From the human T2T-CHM13v2.0 reference genome, Homo sapiens: 64,000 nt of DNA. The translations under genes were made by a program, and so were the position numbers. The stretch lies in the NCBI RefSeq assembly GCF_009914755.1, contig NC_060935.1. One strand, given 5' to 3'. The notes under the pieces were generated by a model. That model did no database searches and was not told where the DNA came from. It saw only the letters and a program-made list of their open reading frames with translations. Of this stretch, positions 28,941-49,390 are shown one piece after another (the first letter of the stretch is position 1; every line of letters starts with the position of its first letter).

Positions 28941-31387
28941 TAATTTTTAAAATGCCCAGAATATGTCAGCAAAAACACACTTTCTAAAGAAATATTCTAT
29001 AAGTAACTAGAACAATAAAATCCTACTCATTCCAAGAATAGTTACAAATAAAAGCTGGAAAAACAATTTATAAAAATAGCCTATAAAATAAAGAGATAAA
29101 AAGGAGGAAAATGCACCAGAAATAGGGCTTTACCTCTGTGAAATATATCACAGAGGAGCATTCTGACTAGTTGAAACAACTTGTGCAGGCTGGTGGATAG
29201 GAGAGGCCACTATTGAGAAATCCTTTAAAGGAACAACAATTTGAACAACAGGTGTTTCTTTAAAAATAAAGAAAATGGAACATTTGTGAAGTGATTTTTT
29301 AAAACTAAAATTCCACATGCAATTTTATTGTAGAAACTTACCACAAGCTTAGTTGTCTAAAACAATATGTTTATTATGTCACATTTCCTGTGGTTCGGAA
29401 GTCTGGGCGTGGCTTGACTAGGTCTTTTGAGAAGCTGAAATCTAGGTTTCAGCAAGGCTTGCAATCTCATCACAGCATAGATAGCTTTGTAATAACTAAT
29501 CTTCCAGTCAACAAACATAATGTATTTCTCCACTTTCTCTAAAAAGAGTCTGGCGCCTCTTCCCCCTTGCTTCCACTGTTCCCTTGTGATCTCTGTGCAT
29601 GCTAGCTCTTCTTCACTTTCCACAATGAGTGCAAGCAGCCTGAGACTCTCACCAGATGCAGATGCCTAATCTTGAACTTTCCAGTCCTTGGAAGCATGAG
29701 CCAAATACACCTTATTTCTTTATAAGTTGCCAAGCCTTAGGAATTCCTTGATAAAAACACAAAAGGGACTAAGACACTTAATATATCTATTGCTATTGAC
29801 AATATAATTATTTTAAGTCATGTAGTCCTACTTTTTTATTGTCATACAGTTATACAAGTGATTTTAATATTTCCTCCATATACATCCTCCTTGCTAAATT
29901 CTCATTTTATATCTAATTTTTTTCTATAAATACATTTAAATTTTCTACACAAAAAATTCATTATCTGCAACTAATGACAGTTTGGTTCTTCTCTAACAAT
30001 TTATATTTAATTATGAATTGTCTTACTTTACTACATAAAGGACCCAGAATAATCCTGAATAAATGTAGGAAGTGTGTATAATTGTTGTGTTGCTGACAAT
30101 AATGTAACACTTTTCAGGTTTTATCACTAATAATGTTATTCACTGTAGGTTTAAAATAATTTTCTTGTTAGCTTAGGAAGTTTTCCTTTATCCTTATTTT
30201 TAAGAGTTTGCTTTAAAACTATGAATACTTGCTTTTTCATTCCAAAGATTTGTTGTCATGCATCTATTGAGATTATTATACTATTAAACTTTAAACAATC
30301 TGCTTCTGTGGTAAATGTGGTATTTAAAAATTAGAATGTTAAAATATATTTGAATATCTGGAATGAGTTCATCTTGATCTTGATACATTGTCATATTTTT
30401 TCTTTTCATATATTATAAAATTTTATTTGAAAAATTACTTCTGGCCCCTTACACTTCATTCATAGTGAGATATGCATATTATTTCCCTGCCTGTATTGAA
30501 CTTTTATTGTTCTTTTTTGAAGGATCCAAGGACGAATCCACCTCTTTGCATTTTTCAGCTTCCAGAGGTTGATCACAGTTCTTGGTCCCTTCAAAGCCAG
30601 CAATGTTGAGTTAAGTCCTTCTCACAAGGAAGGAGAAGAACTCTTCTGCCATTGTCACATCACTCACTATGACTACAAGCAGAAAAGGTTTTCCACTGTT
30701 AAGAATCCATGTGATTATACTGGACATGGGAGTGCATCCAGGATAATCTCCATATTTTAAAGTCAGAGTCTACCAATCTTAATTCTGCAACCTTTGACAC
30801 CCATGTGCCATATAATGTATTCAAAGGTTCTGGGGATCAGGATGTGGACATCTTTGTGGGGCTATTATTCTAAATACCACATTATTCTTGTCTAAGGATA
30901 TTGTCAAGGAAGATGGAAAACAATAACAGGTTATACTCCAGCTGAGGATTCATTGGCAGTAGAAATATCCTGTAACTTCAGTCATAGGGGAAGAACATAT
31001 TAAAAAGTGGGACAAATAGAGTTGTTGGGATGAGAAACAACCAACATGGATTTCTTTTTCTCCTTTGAAATACTTGTTGTGACATGGAGTGATACAAAAA
31101 TAACCAAACCAAAATAACCCAAACCAACTAACAACTTATTTCTATTATGGGTCTCATAACTTTGAAATGATATTCTGTGTCCTGGTTCTTGGAGAAGTAG
31201 GAGAAAGGAATGGTACAGAATCAAAACAATAATCAGCATTATAAAATAAGATGTCTTTATTATACTATATTTTGTCATTACAGGATTCTTAATGTGTAAA
31301 CTCCCAAATAGTCAGCTATATATAGTCTCACAGTTGTACATGGTGATTACCCAATAGTGTGAGAATAGGACAAATGTTTTGGAAACC

Positions 31388-31486
31388 TCAAACCACTGGG
31401 ATCTGTGGAAATGCCACATCATCATAGATATGTTCAGGAGAGACTACAGATCGTTCGTTCTCGTTATTTGGTACAAAAAACACAAC
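31388..31486 (-). pseudogene. Relic MS4A paralogue, candidate terminal exon
   Basis: VVFFVPNNENERSVVSPEHIYDDVAFPQIPVV-TGA, starting like the MS4A tails VVLILP and SVLFLP; acceptor tttcttcacAG; AATAAA at 31261-31256. Confidence 0.65.
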
Positions 31487-31559
31487 CTGTGAAGAAATAG
31501 GAAAATTCTAATTTTCTTATTTCTAATTATCTTATAGTTAGATAAGTAGGAAACTTATC

Positions 31560-32350
31560 TAAGTATACCAACAGGTATATGGGAAAGTACTGAAATCACT
31601 AACCATCAGGTAAATGAAAATCAAAACCGCAGTAAAATATTATCTCACACCTGTCAGGCTGGCAACTATAGAACAAAGCAAGTGTTGGTGAGGTTGTAAA
31701 GAAGTTGGTACCTTTGCACACTGTTGGTGGAAATGTAAAATGGTGCTGCCGCTCTGGAAAGACATATAATTTTTTTCAAAAACTTAAATAACTCCCATAT
31801 GATCCAACAATCCCATTTCTGGGTATTAATCCCAAAACAGTAAAATCAGGATCCCCAAGAGATATTAGCACTCCTATGTTCATTTAATCACTATTCATGG
31901 TAGCCAAAATATGAAAATGTGGTATATGCCAACCTAATACATAAATAAATAATGCTTTTGCTTTTTTTCTTCCAATAATGAAGAAAGGCCTTTTTAAGGC
32001 TTTAGAAAGAAGGAAATTCTGCAATATACTGCAACATAAATGAACCTTGAGGCCATGATGCATACGATAAAAACCAGTCACAGAAAGACAAATATTGCGT
32101 GATTCCAATCATACGAGGTATCTAAAATAGTGTGACTCATAGAATCAGAGGCTGAAATGCTGGTTACCAGGATCTGAGGATAGCAAAAGTGGGGAGTTGC
32201 TAATCAACAGATATAAAGCTTCAGTCAAGCAAGATGAGTAAGCTCTGGAGATCCTGTGTACACTATTGTACCTATAGTCAACAATAATATCTTGTACACA
32301 AAAATGCTTTAGGTTGCTAATCTCATGTTAAATATTCTTACCACAGTAAG
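31560..32350 (+). mobile_element. L1MA/MB 3' fragment inside the relic MS4A gene
   Basis: Degenerate ORF2 end (atcaaaaccgcagt...tatctcacacctg) and 3'UTR. Confidence 0.8.
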
Positions 32351-33016
32351 ATATACTATAGATATAGATATACTATTATTACATATATATACACACGTAT
32401 ATATATAAATATATATATGTATATTTAAAAAGAGTGGCAGATTAGACAAAGTGTCTAAACTGATTTTGTTTGTTTGTTTTAGCCATCCCTACACCTCATA
32501 GTATTTTGTTTGTTTTGTTTTGCTTTTGTTTGGCTTAGAAGTATCTTTTAGTCTTTAAAACCAGTTGCTTCTTATTTCACAACAGCCTGCATTTAACTCC
32601 CTGAACTTCTCACTCACTGTGGATGCCATTGAGGAAAATGAATGTATATGACCCAGTCATCTTAGCTTGTTGCTCAGAATCCTTGGAAATTATGGTGTAG
32701 CTACAGCTGTCAGTTTTCTGTTTTCTCTTCAGCTAGTGTTTCAAATCAAGAGGGAAGTGCTCCCTGGACTCTGAGTCCTTACAACATTTTCCATTGTCCA
32801 AGCACACAACATCAGAGTGGTCAGAGAGAAGAGGTTATTTTTTTTTCGGTACGTTATTCCTGGCATGGTTCAAAAGCCCAAATCCTGTAAATTTCAAGAG
32901 ATAGTCCAATATGTATAAGTCCAATGACTCCAGTTAGCTCCATGGTGAGAATTCACAAGGAAACCTCCTGAATATAAAACCTATTTATATTATTGTATTA
33001 GTGCAACAGTACTTAC

Positions 33017-33151
33017 TACAGAAAAAAATGTGCTATAAGTAGAGATACAAATTCTTCTTAAAAAGATATATATTACTTCCACAGCCATCAGAACTGTGCC
33101 TGTTCCTGCTGTGGTGGCACTGACTGTATTCATCCCCAGGCTGCCTTGGAT
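33017..33151 (-). pseudogene. Relic MS4A paralogue, TM3 exon, 135 nt
   Basis: IQGSLGMNTVSATTAGTGTVLMAVEVIYIFLRRICISTYSTFFSV with the GSLGMNxxS signature; acceptor ctttttctctccttttcAG, donor GTAAGT. Confidence 0.88.
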
Positions 33152-33560
33152 CTGAAAAGGAGAGAAAAAGATTTTTGGAAATATACAGTCTCGTGTTCTT
33201 TCTGTCTCTGAGAGTCCACAAAATGACATTTAACTCAGTTGATTTGAATTTGGATATCAACTTGGACAGTGCTCCCACTCTGGAAAAAAAAATGTTGGGG
33301 GGGAGGAAGCATCTGGTATAGAGGAAGCCTTGATTACATCAGGCTCCAATGCAGGGATTGTATTGCACATGGAATGTCATAGCACAGAGCTAAGTCTATC
33401 ATTCTTGCCTAAGTGTCACAGGGGAAAAATTTATTAGGATTACATGAGAACATTTCTAGGGAGCCTCTTTAGAGAACCAGCCAGGTTTGATGTGTCTTAT
33501 CCTTGCAGCTCAGGAAATGTCTCTTGCTAGAACTCTCAGGCTTAACCAAAAGACACTTAC

Positions 33561-33795
33561 CAGACCCTTGGTCGCTTTCCTTCCAGCAGCAAAGCCCCTG
33601 TTACAGACTTGTCCACTGACTCTCAAAGACATTAGCTTTCATATCCAGCATTCAGCAGTTCTTCCTAAATGAGGATACAAACCCAGTGTTGATGATGGTT
33701 ATGCTTCTGTGTACTAATTATTCAATTCATTTATACCTCTATTGTTTTTCCTGGCTGATTTGCTGCTATTTCCACAGTGCTCCAGACGGAAAGAA
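33561..33795 (-). pseudogene. Relic MS4A paralogue, 57-nt TM2b exon interrupted by a 178-bp insertion (33596-33773)
   Basis: Removing the insert gives exactly 57 nt, FFPSGALCFAAGRKATKGL, compare FIISGSLSIAAGIRTTKGL of MS4A4A; acceptor tttaatcAG, donor GTAAGT. Confidence 0.88.
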
Positions 33796-34006
33796 CTGAT
33801 TAAAGAGAATCAACTCAGAGCTTCCATCGGCACTCCCTTTCCTAAAATAATCTCCTACCTTCTCCCACTCTTTTGTCAATATTATTTACCCAAACAATTG
33901 TCCAAGTTTGGTATTTAAAATTAATGCATAGATTTTCAAGAGAAAATGATGAAGTCATTTGCAGATACCTGAAATTAGAAGTAGTAGAACAATGACTAGT
34001 ACTCAC

Positions 34007-34138
34007 TGAGAAGGATCCCCATAAATGATAGTTCATATTAATTATATGGAGAACTCCAACTGCATAAACAGTTGAAACAAAAAGCGCCATTGTGAGACGC
34101 AGGCATCGTGTCATCAGCCCAATCAGGATCTGAGCCTC
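34007..34138 (-). pseudogene. Relic MS4A paralogue, TM1/TM2a exon, 132 nt
   Basis: EAQILIGLMTRCLRLTMALFVSTVYAVGVLHIINMNYHLWGSFS, compare QILxGxM...YPFWG; acceptor tttactctccAG, donor GTGAGT, phase 0. Confidence 0.88.
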
Positions 34139-34339
34139 CTGGAGAGTAAAAAACATCCTGTGAGGAGGTGCATCTTCTCAGGGTGAAGGCCTTTCTAACA
34201 TCATTGCACATTAATTCCTTCCCCACCTCCGAGACTCCAAACTTGAGATATCTTGCAGGAAGATAAAAATGTATGCATTGTCTGTTCTCTTGTCCAACAC
34301 AGGATACTGCAATTAATCTTACTATTATTTATTTATATA

Positions 34340-34391
34340 TTTGCCATTACTTTTAATGGCAAAAACCGCAGTGACTTTTGCACCAACCTAA
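34340..34391. mobile_element. MADE1 (Hsmar1 MITE), partial
   Basis: gccattacttttaatggcaaaaaccgc...ttttgcaccaacctaa. Confidence 0.85.
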
Positions 34392-34625
34392 TACATAAGT
34401 AATGATAACATTTTTGTGTTTTTTTTCCTTCCAATAATGAACAGCTTTATTCAGTCCCTTTTCATTTTGTCAATTTGTAAGGTTTGTTTAGTTCAGAAAG
34501 GTTCAGATAGTTTTCTACCATACTCAGTGACCTGGAAAATGTGGATATCTTGAGGAAATCTCAGTCCTGTCTCAGGAAATGATGCTTTTCCCCTAAGCCT
34601 GTGCTCTGGTCTCGTGTTCACTCAC

Positions 34626-34788
34626 CCCTAGGACCTGGGGCTGCCTTTTCAGAAAAAGCCTCAAATCCTTCAGTTGCTGTTAGGGCAAGATCCAAGCCCC
34701 CGACTGGCTTGGTAGTAAGATGGTCTCTTTCCAAAGAAAGTTTATGATCCTTCCCTTGACTGCATCTGCCTCTGATGTCCAGGTATTG
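34626..34788 (-). pseudogene. Relic MS4A paralogue, N-terminal exon (in-frame stop, no ATG)
   Basis: ...WILP*QQLKDLRLFLKRQPQVLG|GTGAGT matches the MS4A FLKxxPKVLG exon end; TAA at 34682-34680; acceptor ccaacAG tentative. Confidence 0.8.
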
Positions 34789-36896
34789 CTGTTGGCACCA
34801 GGAGAGAAAACGCTTAGTGGAGAGCCACTTCTAAATATTTTCCTTGATCAATATCAAAATGTAGTGGCAAGAGATTTTGTGTCTCTGGAAAATAATATCA
34901 TAATAATATAATGATATTTGATTGAAATAATCAAATAATATTCATAATATTTTATTTCCACAACTTTGATTAGGGCAGAGCTGGATTTTTTACTTACATC
35001 CTCATTCTCGTATTGACCCAGGCAGTCAGCTAGGACAAATCTGCACTGAACTATAGCTGCCTAATCCTCGGCAAGGGAACACAGTGTTACTGACCTTATG
35101 CAAAGTATCTAAGCCTTGATGAACGAAATTTGGACATTTACCTTCCTGCTCAGATTCCAGAAAGAAAGAGAACTGACTATTTGCAGCAAAATTTCAGGCA
35201 ATATTTTTCCATACCCAAGTTTCCTGTAGCTCAGTTTACAGTGACCCCCACAGGCCTGGCGTTCACATCATCTCCACTTAGACTCCTTGTAAGATCAAAC
35301 ATGGGACTACTATAAGGCACGGTCTCTTCCTACCTTTGCATCTCTTCAGGGCACACCAATGGAAGTTATTGTCCTTTCTGGTGTGTGGACTCTAATTCAC
35401 AGTCCTCAAAGAGGATGAATACCTGTCTGATGTGTAATTTGTGATGAAACTTTGTCTTAGACCCATGGGCCACTAGTTTCCTGTGATTTATCTCACTCTC
35501 CTTGCCAGATAGGTATCTGCAATGTTTTTAAGTTTTGTAATATATCCCTGATATAATAATCTAACTTCACTTCTCACATGCTAACACAGTATCAATGTAA
35601 GAGCACATTGTCAATGCTAGCTCCCCTCCATTGCCGTGTCTCCTGAATAGTATGCATGTCTCGCTTGCCAGATTCACTGTTAATAGGACTCATGTTTCTC
35701 TGGCTTCATGTAATAAAAACTAACTATAAATTATGAGTGCTTCTGAATTAGGGATCTTCTTAAAAACATGATTTTATTTAATAATATTGTATTTTATAAA
35801 ATCCTTATTGTGTATCTTATCACATAACAGTTGTAATTATTTAATATACTTTCCCGACTATTACTTCTGTTTTTTTGAAAAACTCTCCTCCCGGTTCATG
35901 TGATTTCATTAGACTTGTAACCCCAGGTATGACAAAGTCTTTTCTTATGCCACAGTAACTGGACTGCTCTATTTTCTCATCCTTGTAAAATGGTAACTCC
36001 TTAGTGAATGCTTCAGAAGTTTCCAAAAATTCAAGAAAAATACCATATTGTTGGCAAATGTTAATTTATTGTGTATCATATTTAAGGCAGTAGGAAAAAT
36101 GTTTCATAGAACCAAAAGATTGACATCATGTAAACAAACAAACAAAAATCAGTTTGCTACTAACACTTTCCCAATCCACTCTCTCATCTTGGTATTTTTT
36201 TCTTTTTCTTTTTCTTTTTTTTTTGCCAAGGACTTCTTAAAATCTTTTCAGGATTTTTCTTATAAAATATTTTGTAATATTTGAAACAAAACAATAAGCC
36301 TAATAACATCCTGACATCCATTAACATTTAAACAATTCAACTTGGACTCTAAATTCCCTCTACAAATCATGTTAATTCTATGATTCCTCCACAAGAATTT
36401 ACATAGGTGAATATCTATACACATATGTATGTTTACATATATATGCACATATCTATATACATATATATGTGTCTTTTAACTTACTGATTTTTTTCTCCAT
36501 TGTAAGCACTTATTTGGATGTTCAAGACACATGATAATAGAAACATTTACTTCCAAGTTTAATTTTGTAAGGCAAAATTCTCATTTTGTTTCTGGACAAA
36601 AATATCTTTTGGGCCTTTATATCAGCCTCCTCATATATTTTCTCATTCCAGGGGAGAAACTGGTTTTCATCTGGTTCTGTCGATCAACCAGAAAACTCTT
36701 GGATATCCCATTTCAGAGTCAAAGATATTAACATAATGTTCATTACACTATTGTGTGTGTAATTGGTTAAATTACAGCATAATTTTCTCTTTCTTTGCAA
36801 CAGAATTGTGTTTTTGCCATGGAAAACATGTTCCCAATTAAGTGTGGTGACTGGAGGCCACTCATTGGTAAATTACAGATGTCACTTTATACCTGG

Positions 36897-36933
<37 letters not shown>

Positions 36934-37010
36934 AGCATGCATGTGTATATATACATATATATGTGTATCTTTATATGTGTGTGTGTGTGTGTATATATAT
37001 ATGTATATAT
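36897..37010. repeat. Compound (TA)n/(TG)n microsatellite
   Basis: Directly visible. Confidence 0.95.
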
Positions 37011-37658
37011 CTCCCAGATATCACTAGATAGGCTTTTACCAAAAACAAAACAAAACAACTGCAGGATGTCATTTTACAGCACTTTCAACTATCTCCATGG
37101 ATACAATATGATGTTGTTTCTCTGTCCAGTCCCAGCTAGATGCAACACAAGGAAAACTAGTTATCCATGGCACATGGACCAGACCATTAAAGAACAATGG
37201 TAAAGACACCACTTTCCACAATACCCTTCCGTGAGTTAGTCTCACTGTCGCTTTTGCATAGATGCATGTCCCTGTTACAGACTTGTCCACTGACTCTCAA
37301 AGACATTAGCTTTCATATCCAGCATTCAGCAGTTCTTCCGAAATGAGGATACAAGGCAAGTGTTGATGATGGTTATGCTCTAGTGTCCTAATTATTCCCT
37401 TCATTTACACCTCTATTGTTTTTCCTGGCTGACTTGCTGCTATTTCCACTTCCCTGGAGTAGTGCTAGCTCTACACCTATTTAGGTTAGCAAGTCCTGTT
37501 CACTCTTATAAGGTGTCTTTGGGGATAGATTTGTTAGGGTGTAACTCAGCACAGTAACCCCACAGAGGGTTCTAATTTCCCCTCAGATATGTGGTCTTGT
37601 GGTATTTCTATAATGTGTTATATTTCTAGATTTTTATGTGTATTTCCAGAAAAAAAAA

Positions 37659-38812
<1,154 letters not shown>

Positions 38813-48895: not shown

Positions 48896-49324
48896 CTGAA
48901 AGAGAAATGTTGGGTAAGGATCATTGCTAATGACTCATGAATCTGTTATGCATCTTTGCCATTAAATTGTAAGTTATTCCCTTATCTGTCCCCTCAGGAG
49001 GTCTGGGATTGATCATTTATTGCTGTATGCCTCTCCAGTGTCCAGCAAAAATCTCTCAATCTCCAGGGTAATTCTTGGCTGAATGAATGACTATACGAAC
49101 TGGTTCACCTTAAGCAGGACCTCAGTGGTGTGGTAGAGAATGTTACTCTCCTAAATTCTTTCCCCAGGACAGATAGCAGGGCTTTCATGAGGCTTTACCT
49201 GCAACATTACCAAGAGAGCGTGACCCAAAGTGAAGGTGGCAACGTACCAGATGCAGTTTCTCTCTCGCTCAACTCAAAAACCCCTGGCGGAAGCATCAGC
49301 CACATGGAAAAGATAGATCATGTA

Positions 49325-49390
49325 TTAGCATGGTGCAAAAGTAATTGTGGTTTTTGCCATAAAACCACAATTATGTTTGCACCAACCTAA
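49325..49390. mobile_element. MADE1 MITE (palindromic) in an MS4A6A intron
   Basis: TIRs ttagcatggtgcaaaagtaattgtggttt / aaaccacaattatgtttgcaccaacctaa, TA flanks. Confidence 0.85.

What the first reader, a model, noticed from the sequence alone, without database searches (positions are those of the whole stretch)
31256..34788. Unprocessed MS4A paralogue (fossil tetraspan gene) about 10 kb downstream of MS4A6A
Seen in sequence: five minus-strand segments bounded by AG/GT sites translate to FLKRQPQVLG| EAQILIGLM..NYHLWGSFS| FFPSGALCFAAGRKATKGL| IQGSLGMNTVSA..| VVFFVP..stop, followed by AATAAA. All junctions are phase 0 and in the same order as MS4A6A, with exon sizes of 132 and 57 nt against 135 and 57 nt in MS4A6A. 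Established: FLKxEPKVLG, QILxGLM, Y(P)xWG, FIISGSLSIAA and GSLGMN are MS4A/CD20 family signatures. Several motifs are closer to MS4A4A/MS4A3 than to MS4A6A, so this is not a recent MS4A6A copy. Lesions: TAA at 34682-34680, no in-frame ATG, a frameshifting insertion, and no TM4 exon found before the tail exon. Inference: a distinct ancestral MS4A gene was lost in the primate lineage. I do not recall a pseudogene annotation here, but cannot verify that.
Basis: partly seen in the sequence, partly recalled or inferred. Interest (0 to 1): 0.9.

Follow-up and report, generated by a model that had tools for sequence, protein, structure and literature searches.

The report
Fossil MS4A gene reused as LINC02705
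The lncRNA LINC02705, next to the Alzheimer-linked gene MS4A6A, is built on the broken remains of a once separate MS4A (CD20-family) membrane-protein gene, which is an ordinary kind of gene fossil but one that papers on this locus do not mention.

Summary
On the minus strand at 31256-34788 lie five exon-like segments with AG/GT sites, all phase 0. They have the MS4A exon plan of 163, 132, 57, 135 and 99 nt.

A profile of eight human MS4A paralogues, built without the relic, scores the joined exons 2-4 at 71.6 bits. None of 2000 shuffles reaches that score (maximum 12.3). Left-out real paralogues with all three exons score 71-108 bits. Exon 4 alone hits Pfam CD20 at E 6.7e-4.

The relic is 25-37% identical to every human paralogue compared, which is as far apart as the subfamilies are from each other. 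MS4A4A is nearest, but no tree branch supports that. It is therefore not a recent copy.

Lesions:
- an in-frame TAA, and no in-frame ATG in exon 1;
- a 178-nt insertion in exon 3, copied from 3.7 kb upstream, with only these two copies in the genome;
- no detectable TM4 exon.

New here: five of the six internal splice sites of LINC02705 are the old coding splice sites. The sixth lies inside the insertion.

Loss "in primates" is plausible but could not be tested. Interest is modest.

The parts
34626..34788 (-). Relic exon 1, the first coding exon (163 nt). It ends with the MS4A motif FLKRQPQVLG followed by a GT donor.
   Evidence: The last 10 residues are 7/10 identical to the exon-1 ends of MS4A4A and MS4A4E (E 0.09-0.45, weak on its own). 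The donor at 34626 is the end of LINC02705 exon 1 (hub table). The MS4A6A counterpart exon is 161 nt (hub table).
34680..34682 (-). In-frame TAA stop, 18 codons before the end of exon 1. There is no in-frame ATG in the exon.
   Evidence: ORFs 34680..34847 and 34593..34679 are in one frame, separated by this stop; the ATG at 34765-34763 is out of frame and its frame closes after 7 codons.
34007..34138 (-). Relic exon 2 (132 nt, open frame): TM1, a short loop, and the start of TM2. It carries the QILIGLM and ..LWG motifs.
   Evidence: Paralogue profile: E 1.3e-3 among 14,120 ORFs. The best paralogue exon is MS4A4A exon 2, 13/43 identical and in register. It is identical to LINC02705 exon 2 (hub table).
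33774..33795 (-). Relic exon 3, 5' piece (22 nt), after AG at 33797-33796.
33596..33773 (-). 178-nt duplicative insertion that splits exon 3. It contains the AG (33666-33665) used as acceptor by LINC02705 exon 3 (33561-33664).
   Evidence: BLAST gives 33596-33775 versus 37270-37449 at 93.3% over 180 nt; the alignment is. There are only 2 copies in the whole assembly. The source copy has C where the insert has the A of the AG.
33561..33595 (-). Relic exon 3, 3' piece (35 nt), followed by the gtaagt donor. The two pieces together make 57 nt.
   Evidence: Its last 10 residues are 70% identical to the exon-3 ends of MS4A4A and MS4A4E. The joined exon is 11/19 identical to MS4A4A exon 3. The donor at 33561 is used by LINC02705 (hub table).
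33017..33151 (-). Relic exon 4 (135 nt, open frame): TM3 with the GSLGMN motif, plus a short loop. The donor is gtaagt at 33016-33011.
   Evidence: Pfam CD20 PF04103: E 6.7e-4, 20.2 bits, profile positions 61-99. All 3 PDB sequence hits are Fc-epsilon-RI beta, which is MS4A2 (E 0.23-2.2). Paralogue profile: E 1.7e-4. The acceptor at 33151 is used by LINC02705 (hub table).
31388..31486 (-). Relic tail exon (32 codons plus TGA), starting VVFFVP.
   Evidence: A degenerate hexapeptide pattern for the exon start hits 9 places in the six frames of 262 kb. Only 3 of them follow an AG: the MS4A6A tail, the MS4A4A tail and this one (the pattern was chosen after seeing the data). This exon is not part of the RefSeq lncRNA model.
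31256..31261 (-). AATAAA, 127 nt after the stop codon.
   Evidence: it is the only AATAAA or ATTAAA between 31390 and 30900 on this strand.
37270..37449 (-). Source copy of the inserted segment, 3.67 kb upstream, inside LINC02705 exon 1.
32523..37682 (-). LINC02705, a RefSeq predicted lncRNA whose internal splice sites coincide with the relic's exon borders.
   Evidence: Hub annotation table, compared with the exon borders.

Best explanation
This is a transcribed, unprocessed pseudogene of a separate MS4A (CD20-like four-pass membrane protein) paralogue. It lies in the MS4A cluster between MS4A2 and MS4A6A, in the same orientation as MS4A6A.

Shown:
- It keeps the family's exon plan. Exon 1 ends with the FLK..P.VLG motif. 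Exon 2 (132 nt) covers TM1 and TM2. Exon 3 is the 57-nt exon. Exon 4 holds TM3. The short tail exon follows. All introns are phase 0.
- It can no longer encode the protein. It has a stop and no start codon in exon 1, a 178-nt insertion in exon 3 copied from 3.67 kb upstream, and no detectable TM4 exon.
- Transcription persists. LINC02705 splices at the old exon-1 donor, both ends of exon 2, the old exon-3 donor and the old exon-4 acceptor. It has gained one new acceptor inside the insertion.

Inferred:
- The gene was a distinct subfamily-level lineage, loosely nearest MS4A4.
- It died some tens of millions of years ago.
- The TM4 exon was removed by a deletion.
- Today's RNA is most likely a non-coding by-product of a still active myeloid regulatory neighbourhood, not a functional product in its own right.
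For: Family membership:
- Joined exons 2+3+TM3 score 71.6 bits (E 2.6e-24, Z=1) against an HMM of 8 human paralogues built without the relic. None of 2000 shuffles reaches that score (maximum 12.3) and the reversed sequence scores 2.0.
- Left-out real paralogues score 71.3-107.7 bits when complete, and 37.3 and 17.5 bits for the two that lack exon 3.
- Exon 4 alone hits Pfam CD20 at E 6.7e-4, at the expected profile positions.
- All 3 PDB hits of exon 4 are MS4A2.

Specificity: in 14,120 six-frame ORFs of 262 kb, only exons of known MS4A genes and relic exons 2 and 4 fall below E 0.01.

Exon plan: lengths of 132/57/135 nt compare with 129/57/159 in MS4A4A, 135/57/210 in MS4A6A, 138/57/162 in MS4A3 and 135/57/159 in MS4A2.

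Distinct lineage:
- Identity to the paralogues is 16/68 to 33/90, against 22-40% between subfamilies and 76% for MS4A4A versus MS4A4E.
- There is no blastn match to any paralogue exon.
- Exons 2 and 4 each find only themselves in the genome.

Insertion.

The lncRNA exon borders come from the hub table.

Expression context, from passages seen in papers:
- LINC02705 is co-expressed with MS4A6A, r 0.458 (PMC8627656).
- It is raised in pulpitis (PMC11677139).
- It is listed among late-onset Alzheimer risk loci (PMC11736697 Table 1).
Against: - Taken alone, only 1 of the 5 segments hits Pfam CD20, and that hit (20.2 bits) is below the whole-protein cut-off of 27.9. Exons 1 and 2 and the tail give 0 families.
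- Exon 2 has no PDB relative.
- The genome-wide Pfam scan did not list the relic among its 37 matches.
- The joined peptide could not be given to the Pfam tool itself. The 71.6-bit score comes from my own small profile, and the relic was present when the columns were aligned.
- Evidence for exon 1 (E 0.09-0.45) and for the tail exon (a pattern chosen after the fact) is weak on its own.
- Subfamily placement is unresolved: 5 of 6 inner branches of the tree are unsupported, and the relic sits on a long branch.
- No transcript data were examined. The lncRNA model is a predicted RefSeq model.
Confidence: 0.9

Rival explanations
1. Timing variant: the gene was already dead in the common ancestor of placental mammals. 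It would then be an ancient failed duplicate, not a gene lost within primates, and no mammal would carry an intact orthologue.
For: Identity to all paralogues is low. TM1 carries two arginines and the YP.WG motif is altered, which could reflect long decay. No orthologue could be examined. The MS4A family survey found no extra lineage: 0 mentions of 'pseudogene' in the passages searched (PMC2826416).
Against: About 140 codons (exons 2, 3, 4 and the tail) have no stop and no small indel apart from the one insertion. Every AG and GT of the five segments is intact. Using assumed neutral rates (my inference, not a computation from orthologues), roughly 90 million years of decay should have left several stops and indels. 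The insertion differs from its source by only 12 of 180 bases.
Confidence: 0.25
2. It is a recent, degraded duplicate of a living human MS4A gene (MS4A6A, MS4A4A or MS4A4E).
For: It sits beside MS4A6A in the same orientation. MS4A4A is the nearest paralogue.
Against: Identity is 26/90 to MS4A6A and 33/90 to MS4A4A, whereas MS4A4A versus MS4A4E is 76%. MS4A6A protein against the region gives nothing significant. blastn of 31000-35000 against 262 kb finds no paralogue exon.
Confidence: 0.02
3. Chance: unrelated ORFs and splice-like sites that happen to resemble MS4A motifs.
For: Single-exon scores are modest.
Against: None of 2000 shuffles comes near the joined score. Exons 2 and 4 are independently significant, lie in the correct order and strand, and have the family's exon lengths and phases. 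The split exon reassembles to exactly 57 nt once a segment with a second copy elsewhere is removed.
Confidence: 0.01
4. The locus still encodes a protein, either a truncated MS4A-like product or an intact allele in some people (a polymorphic pseudogene).
For: Exons 2 and 4 and the tail are open, and the locus is transcribed and spliced (hub table).
Against: In this assembly there is no in-frame ATG and there is a TAA in exon 1. The lncRNA's exon 3 carries 69 nt of insert, and the insert contains stops in the coding frame. TM4 is absent. The 12 differences between insert and source show that the insertion is old, not a recent polymorphism.
Confidence: 0.02

Closest known systems
MS4A4A (human, chr11 cluster), the nearest living paralogue
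   Same: Same exon plan: exon 1 ends FLK..P.VLG; exon 2 is 129 nt against 132; exon 3 is 57 nt and 11/19 identical; exon 4 opens with GSLGMN; the tail exon opens VV...P straight after its acceptor. It has the best exon-2 alignment score of the 12 paralogue exons compared.
   Different: Only 33/90 identical over exon 2, exon 3 and TM3, which is no closer than different subfamilies are to each other. The tree gives no support for the grouping. The exon-4 loop is shorter (45 against 53 residues). The relic has no TM4 exon and is broken.
MS4A6A, the neighbouring gene 10 kb upstream
   Same: Same strand, same cluster and the same phase-0 exon plan, including the 57-nt exon (hub table). LINC02705 expression correlates with it (PMC8627656 passage).
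   Different: 26/90 identical. MS4A6A lacks the GSLG.N motif in TM3. tblastn with its protein does not find the relic.
lncRNAs that are fossils of lost protein-coding genes (Hezroni et al. 2017, PMC5577775)
   Same: A lncRNA whose exons and splice sites sit on the remains of coding exons of a gene that lost its frame.
   Different: [quoted passage not shown] This relic looks younger and lies inside a tandem family. The locus does not appear in that paper: 0 occurrences of MS4A or AP001257 in the main text, and 0 of MS4A, AP001257 or LINC02705 in the 4 supplementary files held.
MS4A4E, a degenerate family member in the same cluster
   Same: An MS4A locus with signs of decay: its exon-3 acceptor reads TAT where MS4A4A has TAG, and the SG motif reads SV.
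   Different: MS4A4E is a young copy of MS4A4A (76% identity in the core) and is annotated as protein-coding (hub table). The relic is old, distinct and annotated as a lncRNA.

Membership tests
MS4A / CD20-like family (Pfam PF04103) | Significant match to the family profile | tested here: met
   Exon 4 alone: PF04103 at E 6.7e-4, 20.2 bits, positions 61-99 of 156. That is below the 27.9-bit whole-protein cut-off, as expected for a 45-residue piece. Joined exons 2-4 against my HMM of 8 human paralogues: 71.6 bits, with 0 of 2000 shuffles as high. The joined peptide was not scored against Pfam itself.
MS4A / CD20-like family (Pfam PF04103) | Family exon plan: phase-0 introns, an exon 2 of about 130 nt, an invariant 57-nt exon 3, and separate TM3, TM4 and tail exons | tested here: met
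   Exons of 132, 57 and 135 nt plus a tail exon, all phase 0, compared with five paralogues. The TM4 exon is missing.
MS4A / CD20-like family (Pfam PF04103) | Four transmembrane spans in one open reading frame | tested here: not met
   TM1-TM3 are recognisable. No TM4 exon was found: the best profile hit in the interval is 6.1 bits, E 7.2. The frame is broken by a TAA, the lack of an ATG and the 178-nt insertion. It is therefore filed as a pseudogene of the family, not a member gene.
MS4A / CD20-like family (Pfam PF04103) | Location in the 11q12 MS4A tandem cluster | tested here: met
   The hub table places it between MS4A2 and MS4A6A. Pfam hits for neighbouring genes are at the expected places.
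Unprocessed pseudogene | Introns retained at the parental positions, plus disabling lesions | tested here: met
   Four introns lie at family positions, with AG/GT sites. The lesions are as listed.
Unitary pseudogene | No functional close paralogue in the same genome | tested here: met
   37% identity or less to the 8 paralogues compared over three exons, and to 12 compared over exon 2. Exons 2 and 4 find only themselves genome-wide, although that search has low sensitivity for short queries.
Unitary pseudogene | An intact, functional orthologue in other species | not testable with these tools
   No mammalian genome other than the window's own assembly is held. The protein database returned no vertebrate relatives.
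lncRNA derived from a protein-coding gene fossil | lncRNA splice sites coincide with the former coding splice sites | tested here: met
   Five of the 6 internal splice sites of XR_007082148.1 (34626, 34138, 34007, 33561, 33151) are relic exon borders. The sixth (33664) lies in the insertion (hub table). Real transcript data were not examined.

The most novel reading that the evidence does not exclude
LINC02705 is the fossil of a further, otherwise unrecognised MS4A lineage that is still an intact gene in some non-primate mammals. Its continued transcription and splicing in myeloid cells, inside the Alzheimer-associated MS4A haplotype block, would not be neutral: it would influence expression of MS4A6A or MS4A4A, or mark the element through which the risk variants act.
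Probability: 0.1. Interest if true: 0.6.

Novelty: new member of a known kind. Interest (0 to 1): 0.33.

Why it matters
Genetic studies of Alzheimer's disease and of neutrophil counts name the lncRNA at this place as the 'nearest gene' and treat it as an RNA of unknown origin (passages in PMC11736697, PMC11837265 and PMC7749173). That 'AP001257.1' in the last two papers is the same lncRNA is my recollection, not a tool result.

Knowing that the locus is a dead MS4A gene has three uses:
- It explains the RNA's exon structure and its co-expression with MS4A6A.
- It warns against reading the RNA as a purpose-built regulator.
- It adds one lineage to the history of a family studied for immune signalling and, in mice, chemosensation (recalled).

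The dated insertion gives a simple marker for placing the loss on the primate tree. Beyond that, it is an ordinary product of birth-and-death evolution in a tandem gene cluster.

Tried and rejected
1. A complete 59-nt exon 3 at 33795-33739, with a 2-nt frameshift. I read this by eye. It is rejected: its second half is part of the inserted segment, which has a 93% identical copy at 37270-37449.

2. A TM4 exon at about 32854-32952, also read by eye. It is unsupported. Pfam gives no CD20 hit. tblastn with the TM4 exons of MS4A3, MS4A4E and MS4A6A finds nothing in the relic at E below 5. A profile of 5 TM4 exons does not place it in the top 40. That profile is weak, though: it gives the real MS4A2 TM4 only 10.6 bits.

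3. The search for homologous proteins with exon 4 returned no relatives. That database seems to hold no vertebrate MS4A proteins.

4. The genome search with Pfam CD20 over the whole assembly gave 37 matches but missed the relic. With exon 2 or exon 4 as protein query it found only the query itself, so it is too insensitive for short diverged exons.

5. PDB search with exon 2 gave only an irrelevant hit, E 7.5.

6. A tree of 9 sequences over 93 columns was unresolved.

7. A mirror-image idea, that the relic is the inverted-duplication partner of the gene at 60.336 Mb (MS4A7 by recollection), is not supported: 18/71 identical.

8. The N-terminal part of exon 1 shows no similarity to MS4A4A or MS4A4E beyond the last 10 residues.

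Paralogues there are represented only by single exons.

10. Literature searches:
- 'MS4A19P' and 'MS4A19' gave 0 papers.
- 'LINC02705' gave 3 papers and 'AP001257.1' gave 7. Of these I opened passages in all 3 LINC02705 papers and in 3 of the 7 AP001257.1 papers; none of the passages seen mentions MS4A ancestry.
- 'MS4A' with 'unprocessed pseudogene' gave 13 papers and with 'unitary pseudogene' gave 1. None is on topic by title, and one was checked.

Full report
**What is there.** The window is T2T chr11:60078001-60142000 (hub table; confirmed). I read the minus strand of 31000-35000 and listed all stop-to-stop frames.
- Exon 1 is 34788-34626, after AG at 34790-34789. It ends with FLKRQPQVLG and a gtgagt donor.
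- Exon 2 is 34138-34007 (132 nt, open).
- Exon 3 is in two pieces, 33795-33774 and 33595-33561.
- Exon 4 is 33151-33017 (135 nt, open), with a gtaagt donor.
- The tail exon is 31486-31388 (32 codons plus TGA). AATAAA follows at 31261-31256.

The lengths make every junction phase 0. MS4A6A, 10 kb upstream on the same strand, has coding exons of 147, 135, 57, 210 and 129 nt.

**The insertion in exon 3.** I first thought 33795-33739 was a complete, slightly frameshifted exon 3. That was wrong.
- blastn of the region against 262 kb of the cluster showed that 33596-33775 is 93.3% identical over 180 nt to 37270-37449 on the same strand (alignment).
- These are the only two copies in the whole assembly. 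This is therefore a local duplicative insertion, not an interspersed repeat.
- The two copies share a GT at one junction. Once that is allowed for, the insert is 178 nt (33773-33596), which shifts the frame.
- The flanking pieces are 22 and 35 nt and add up to exactly 57 nt, the invariant size of MS4A exon 3.
- The copies differ at 12 of 180 positions, several of them adjacent.

**Is it an MS4A gene?**
- Taken singly, only exon 4 reaches Pfam CD20: PF04103 at E 6.7e-4 and 20.2 bits, at profile positions 61-99. The other eight frames I submitted gave no CD20 hit.
- Against PDB sequences, all three hits of exon 4 are the Fc-epsilon-RI beta chain, which is MS4A2 (E 0.23-2.2). Exon 2 had no relevant hit.
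I therefore fetched chr11:60.000-60.262 Mb and used the exon loci from a genome-wide Pfam scan.
- From these I worked out exons 2, 3 and 4 of MS4A3, MS4A2, MS4A6A, MS4A4E and MS4A4A, and of three further paralogues that I name by coordinate. I then built an HMM from these eight, leaving the relic out.
- The joined relic peptide scores 71.6 bits (E 2.6e-24 for one sequence). None of 2000 shuffles exceeds 12.3 bits.
- Real paralogues left out in turn score 71.3-107.7 bits when complete, and 37.3 and 17.5 bits for the two that lack exon 3.
- The same HMM run over all 14,120 six-frame ORFs of the 262 kb gave 17 ORFs below E 0.01: 15 with exons of the five annotated genes, plus relic exon 4 (E 1.7e-4) and relic exon 2 (E 1.3e-3). 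The next hit had E 1.4.
- One caveat applies: the relic was present when the columns were aligned.

**Which MS4A?**
- Over exon 2, exon 3 and TM3 the relic is identical at 33/90 positions to MS4A4A, 31/90 to the gene at 60.381 Mb, 30/90 to MS4A4E, 28/91 to MS4A3, 26/90 to MS4A6A and 23/90 to MS4A2.
- It is identical at 18/71 positions to the gene at 60.336 Mb and at 16/68 to the gene at 60.414 Mb, which I recall is CD20.
- Different subfamilies are 22-40% identical to each other, and MS4A4A versus MS4A4E is 76%.
- Of 12 paralogue exon-2 peptides, MS4A4A gives the best alignment score.
- A maximum-likelihood tree puts the relic beside MS4A4A and MS4A4E, but without support, and the relic is on a long branch.
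- There is no nucleotide-level match to any paralogue exon, and MS4A6A protein does not detect the relic.
- It is therefore a distinct, subfamily-level lineage and not a recent copy.

**Lesions.**
- Exon 1: TAA at 34682-34680, in frame, 18 codons before the end of the exon. There is no M in that frame within the exon. An ATG at 34765-34763 is out of frame and its frame closes after seven codons.
- Exon 3: the 178-nt insertion.
- TM4 exon: in the paralogues TM4 is a separate 102-nt exon. A profile of five such exons finds nothing in the 1.5 kb between exon 4 and the tail exon; the best hit there is 6.1 bits, E 7.2. A candidate I had picked by eye is unsupported.
- That interval is 1.5 kb. The matching interval is 3.1 kb in MS4A6A and 5.4 kb in MS4A4A, so a deletion is the likeliest cause (inference).
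- Exons 2 and 4 and the tail are open, and all their splice dinucleotides are intact.

**The tail exon.** It starts VVFFVP directly after an AG. The MS4A4A and MS4A6A tail exons start with similar hexapeptides and also end within 23-32 codons. A degenerate pattern for this start occurs 9 times in the six frames of 262 kb. Only these three occurrences follow an AG. I chose the pattern after seeing the data, so I treat this as supportive rather than decisive.

**Relation to LINC02705.** The hub table gives the exons of the RefSeq model XR_007082148.1 as 34626-37682, 34007-34138, 33561-33664 and 32523-33151.
- Five of its six internal splice sites are the relic's exon-1 donor, both ends of exon 2, the exon-3 donor and the exon-4 acceptor.
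- The sixth, the acceptor at 33664, uses an AG at 33666-33665 inside the insertion. The source copy has CG at that place.
- The lncRNA's third exon is therefore 69 nt of insert plus the 35-nt 3' piece of old exon 3.
- The lncRNA is thus the transcript of the dead gene, still spliced at its old sites. I did not examine transcript data, and the model is a predicted one.

**Age (inference).**
- Twelve differences in 180 bases give a Jukes-Cantor distance of 0.070 between the copies. That is about 35 million years at an assumed 1e-9 substitutions per site per year, and 16-70 million years for rates of 2.2e-9 to 0.5e-9. Clustering of the differences would lower the estimate.
- About 140 codons survive without a stop or small indel, which also argues against a death before the placental radiation.
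- Both arguments fit a loss within primates, but they rest on assumed rates. No other mammal could be examined here.

**What is known.** I saw passages only, not whole papers.
- LINC02705 appears as a lncRNA co-expressed with MS4A6A (PMC8627656), as raised in pulpitis (PMC11677139), and in a table of late-onset Alzheimer risk loci (PMC11736697).
- 'AP001257.1' is called a lncRNA holding Alzheimer lead variants (PMC11837265) and a lincRNA in a neutrophil TWAS (PMC7749173). I recall it as the older name of the same RNA but did not verify that.
- None of these passages mentions MS4A ancestry.
- The MS4A family survey PMC2826416 has 0 occurrences of 'pseudogene', and so does the 2024 review PMC11663944.
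- The study of lncRNAs as fossils of coding genes (PMC5577775) does not list the locus in its text or in the 4 supplementary files held.
- Searches for 'MS4A19P' and 'MS4A19' found nothing.
- I could not consult GENCODE, HGNC or the pseudogene tracks, so an existing database label cannot be excluded.

**Verdict.** This is a transcribed, unprocessed pseudogene of a distinct MS4A lineage, and it is now the scaffold of LINC02705. The timing of the loss is untested. It is a new member of a well-known kind, of modest interest, made somewhat more useful by sitting in a heavily studied disease locus.

Noticed in passing
L041, chr11:60165853-60165927 (MS4A4E exon 3 region), compared with chr11:60252271-60252348 (MS4A4A): Just before its 57-nt exon 3, MS4A4E reads TAT where MS4A4A has the TAG acceptor, and the conserved SG of the exon reads SV. 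MS4A4E itself may be decaying, although it is annotated as protein-coding.
   Followed up: no
window 34383-34441 and 31929-31982; also 49320-49364: Short, roughly 81-87% similar copies containing 'ttaggttggtgcaaaagt' lie in relic intron 1, in the intron before the tail exon, and in MS4A6A. This looks like the end of a mariner-type miniature element; that name is recalled and was not tested.
   Followed up: no
window 31567-32285: A stretch of about 0.7 kb, 65-70% similar to at least six other places in the 262 kb, fills about half of the interval where the TM4 exon should be. It is an old interspersed repeat that is not in the hub's list of masked stretches.
   Followed up: partly
window 34080-34112 (relic exon 2, TM1): The TM1 part of exon 2 encodes two arginines from CpG-containing codons, with three CpGs within about 33 nt. 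This is unusual both for a membrane helix and for old neutral DNA.
   Followed up: no
chr11:60000001-60262000 (L031-L050 plus the window): The six-frame scan with the paralogue profile found no further unannotated MS4A-like exon between MS4A3 and MS4A4A. The best background hit had E 1.4.
   Followed up: yes
window 32360-32430: A TA/CA-rich simple repeat lies in the intron between exon 4 and the tail exon. Similar tracts occur at 36433-36479, 37012-36946 and elsewhere.
   Followed up: no
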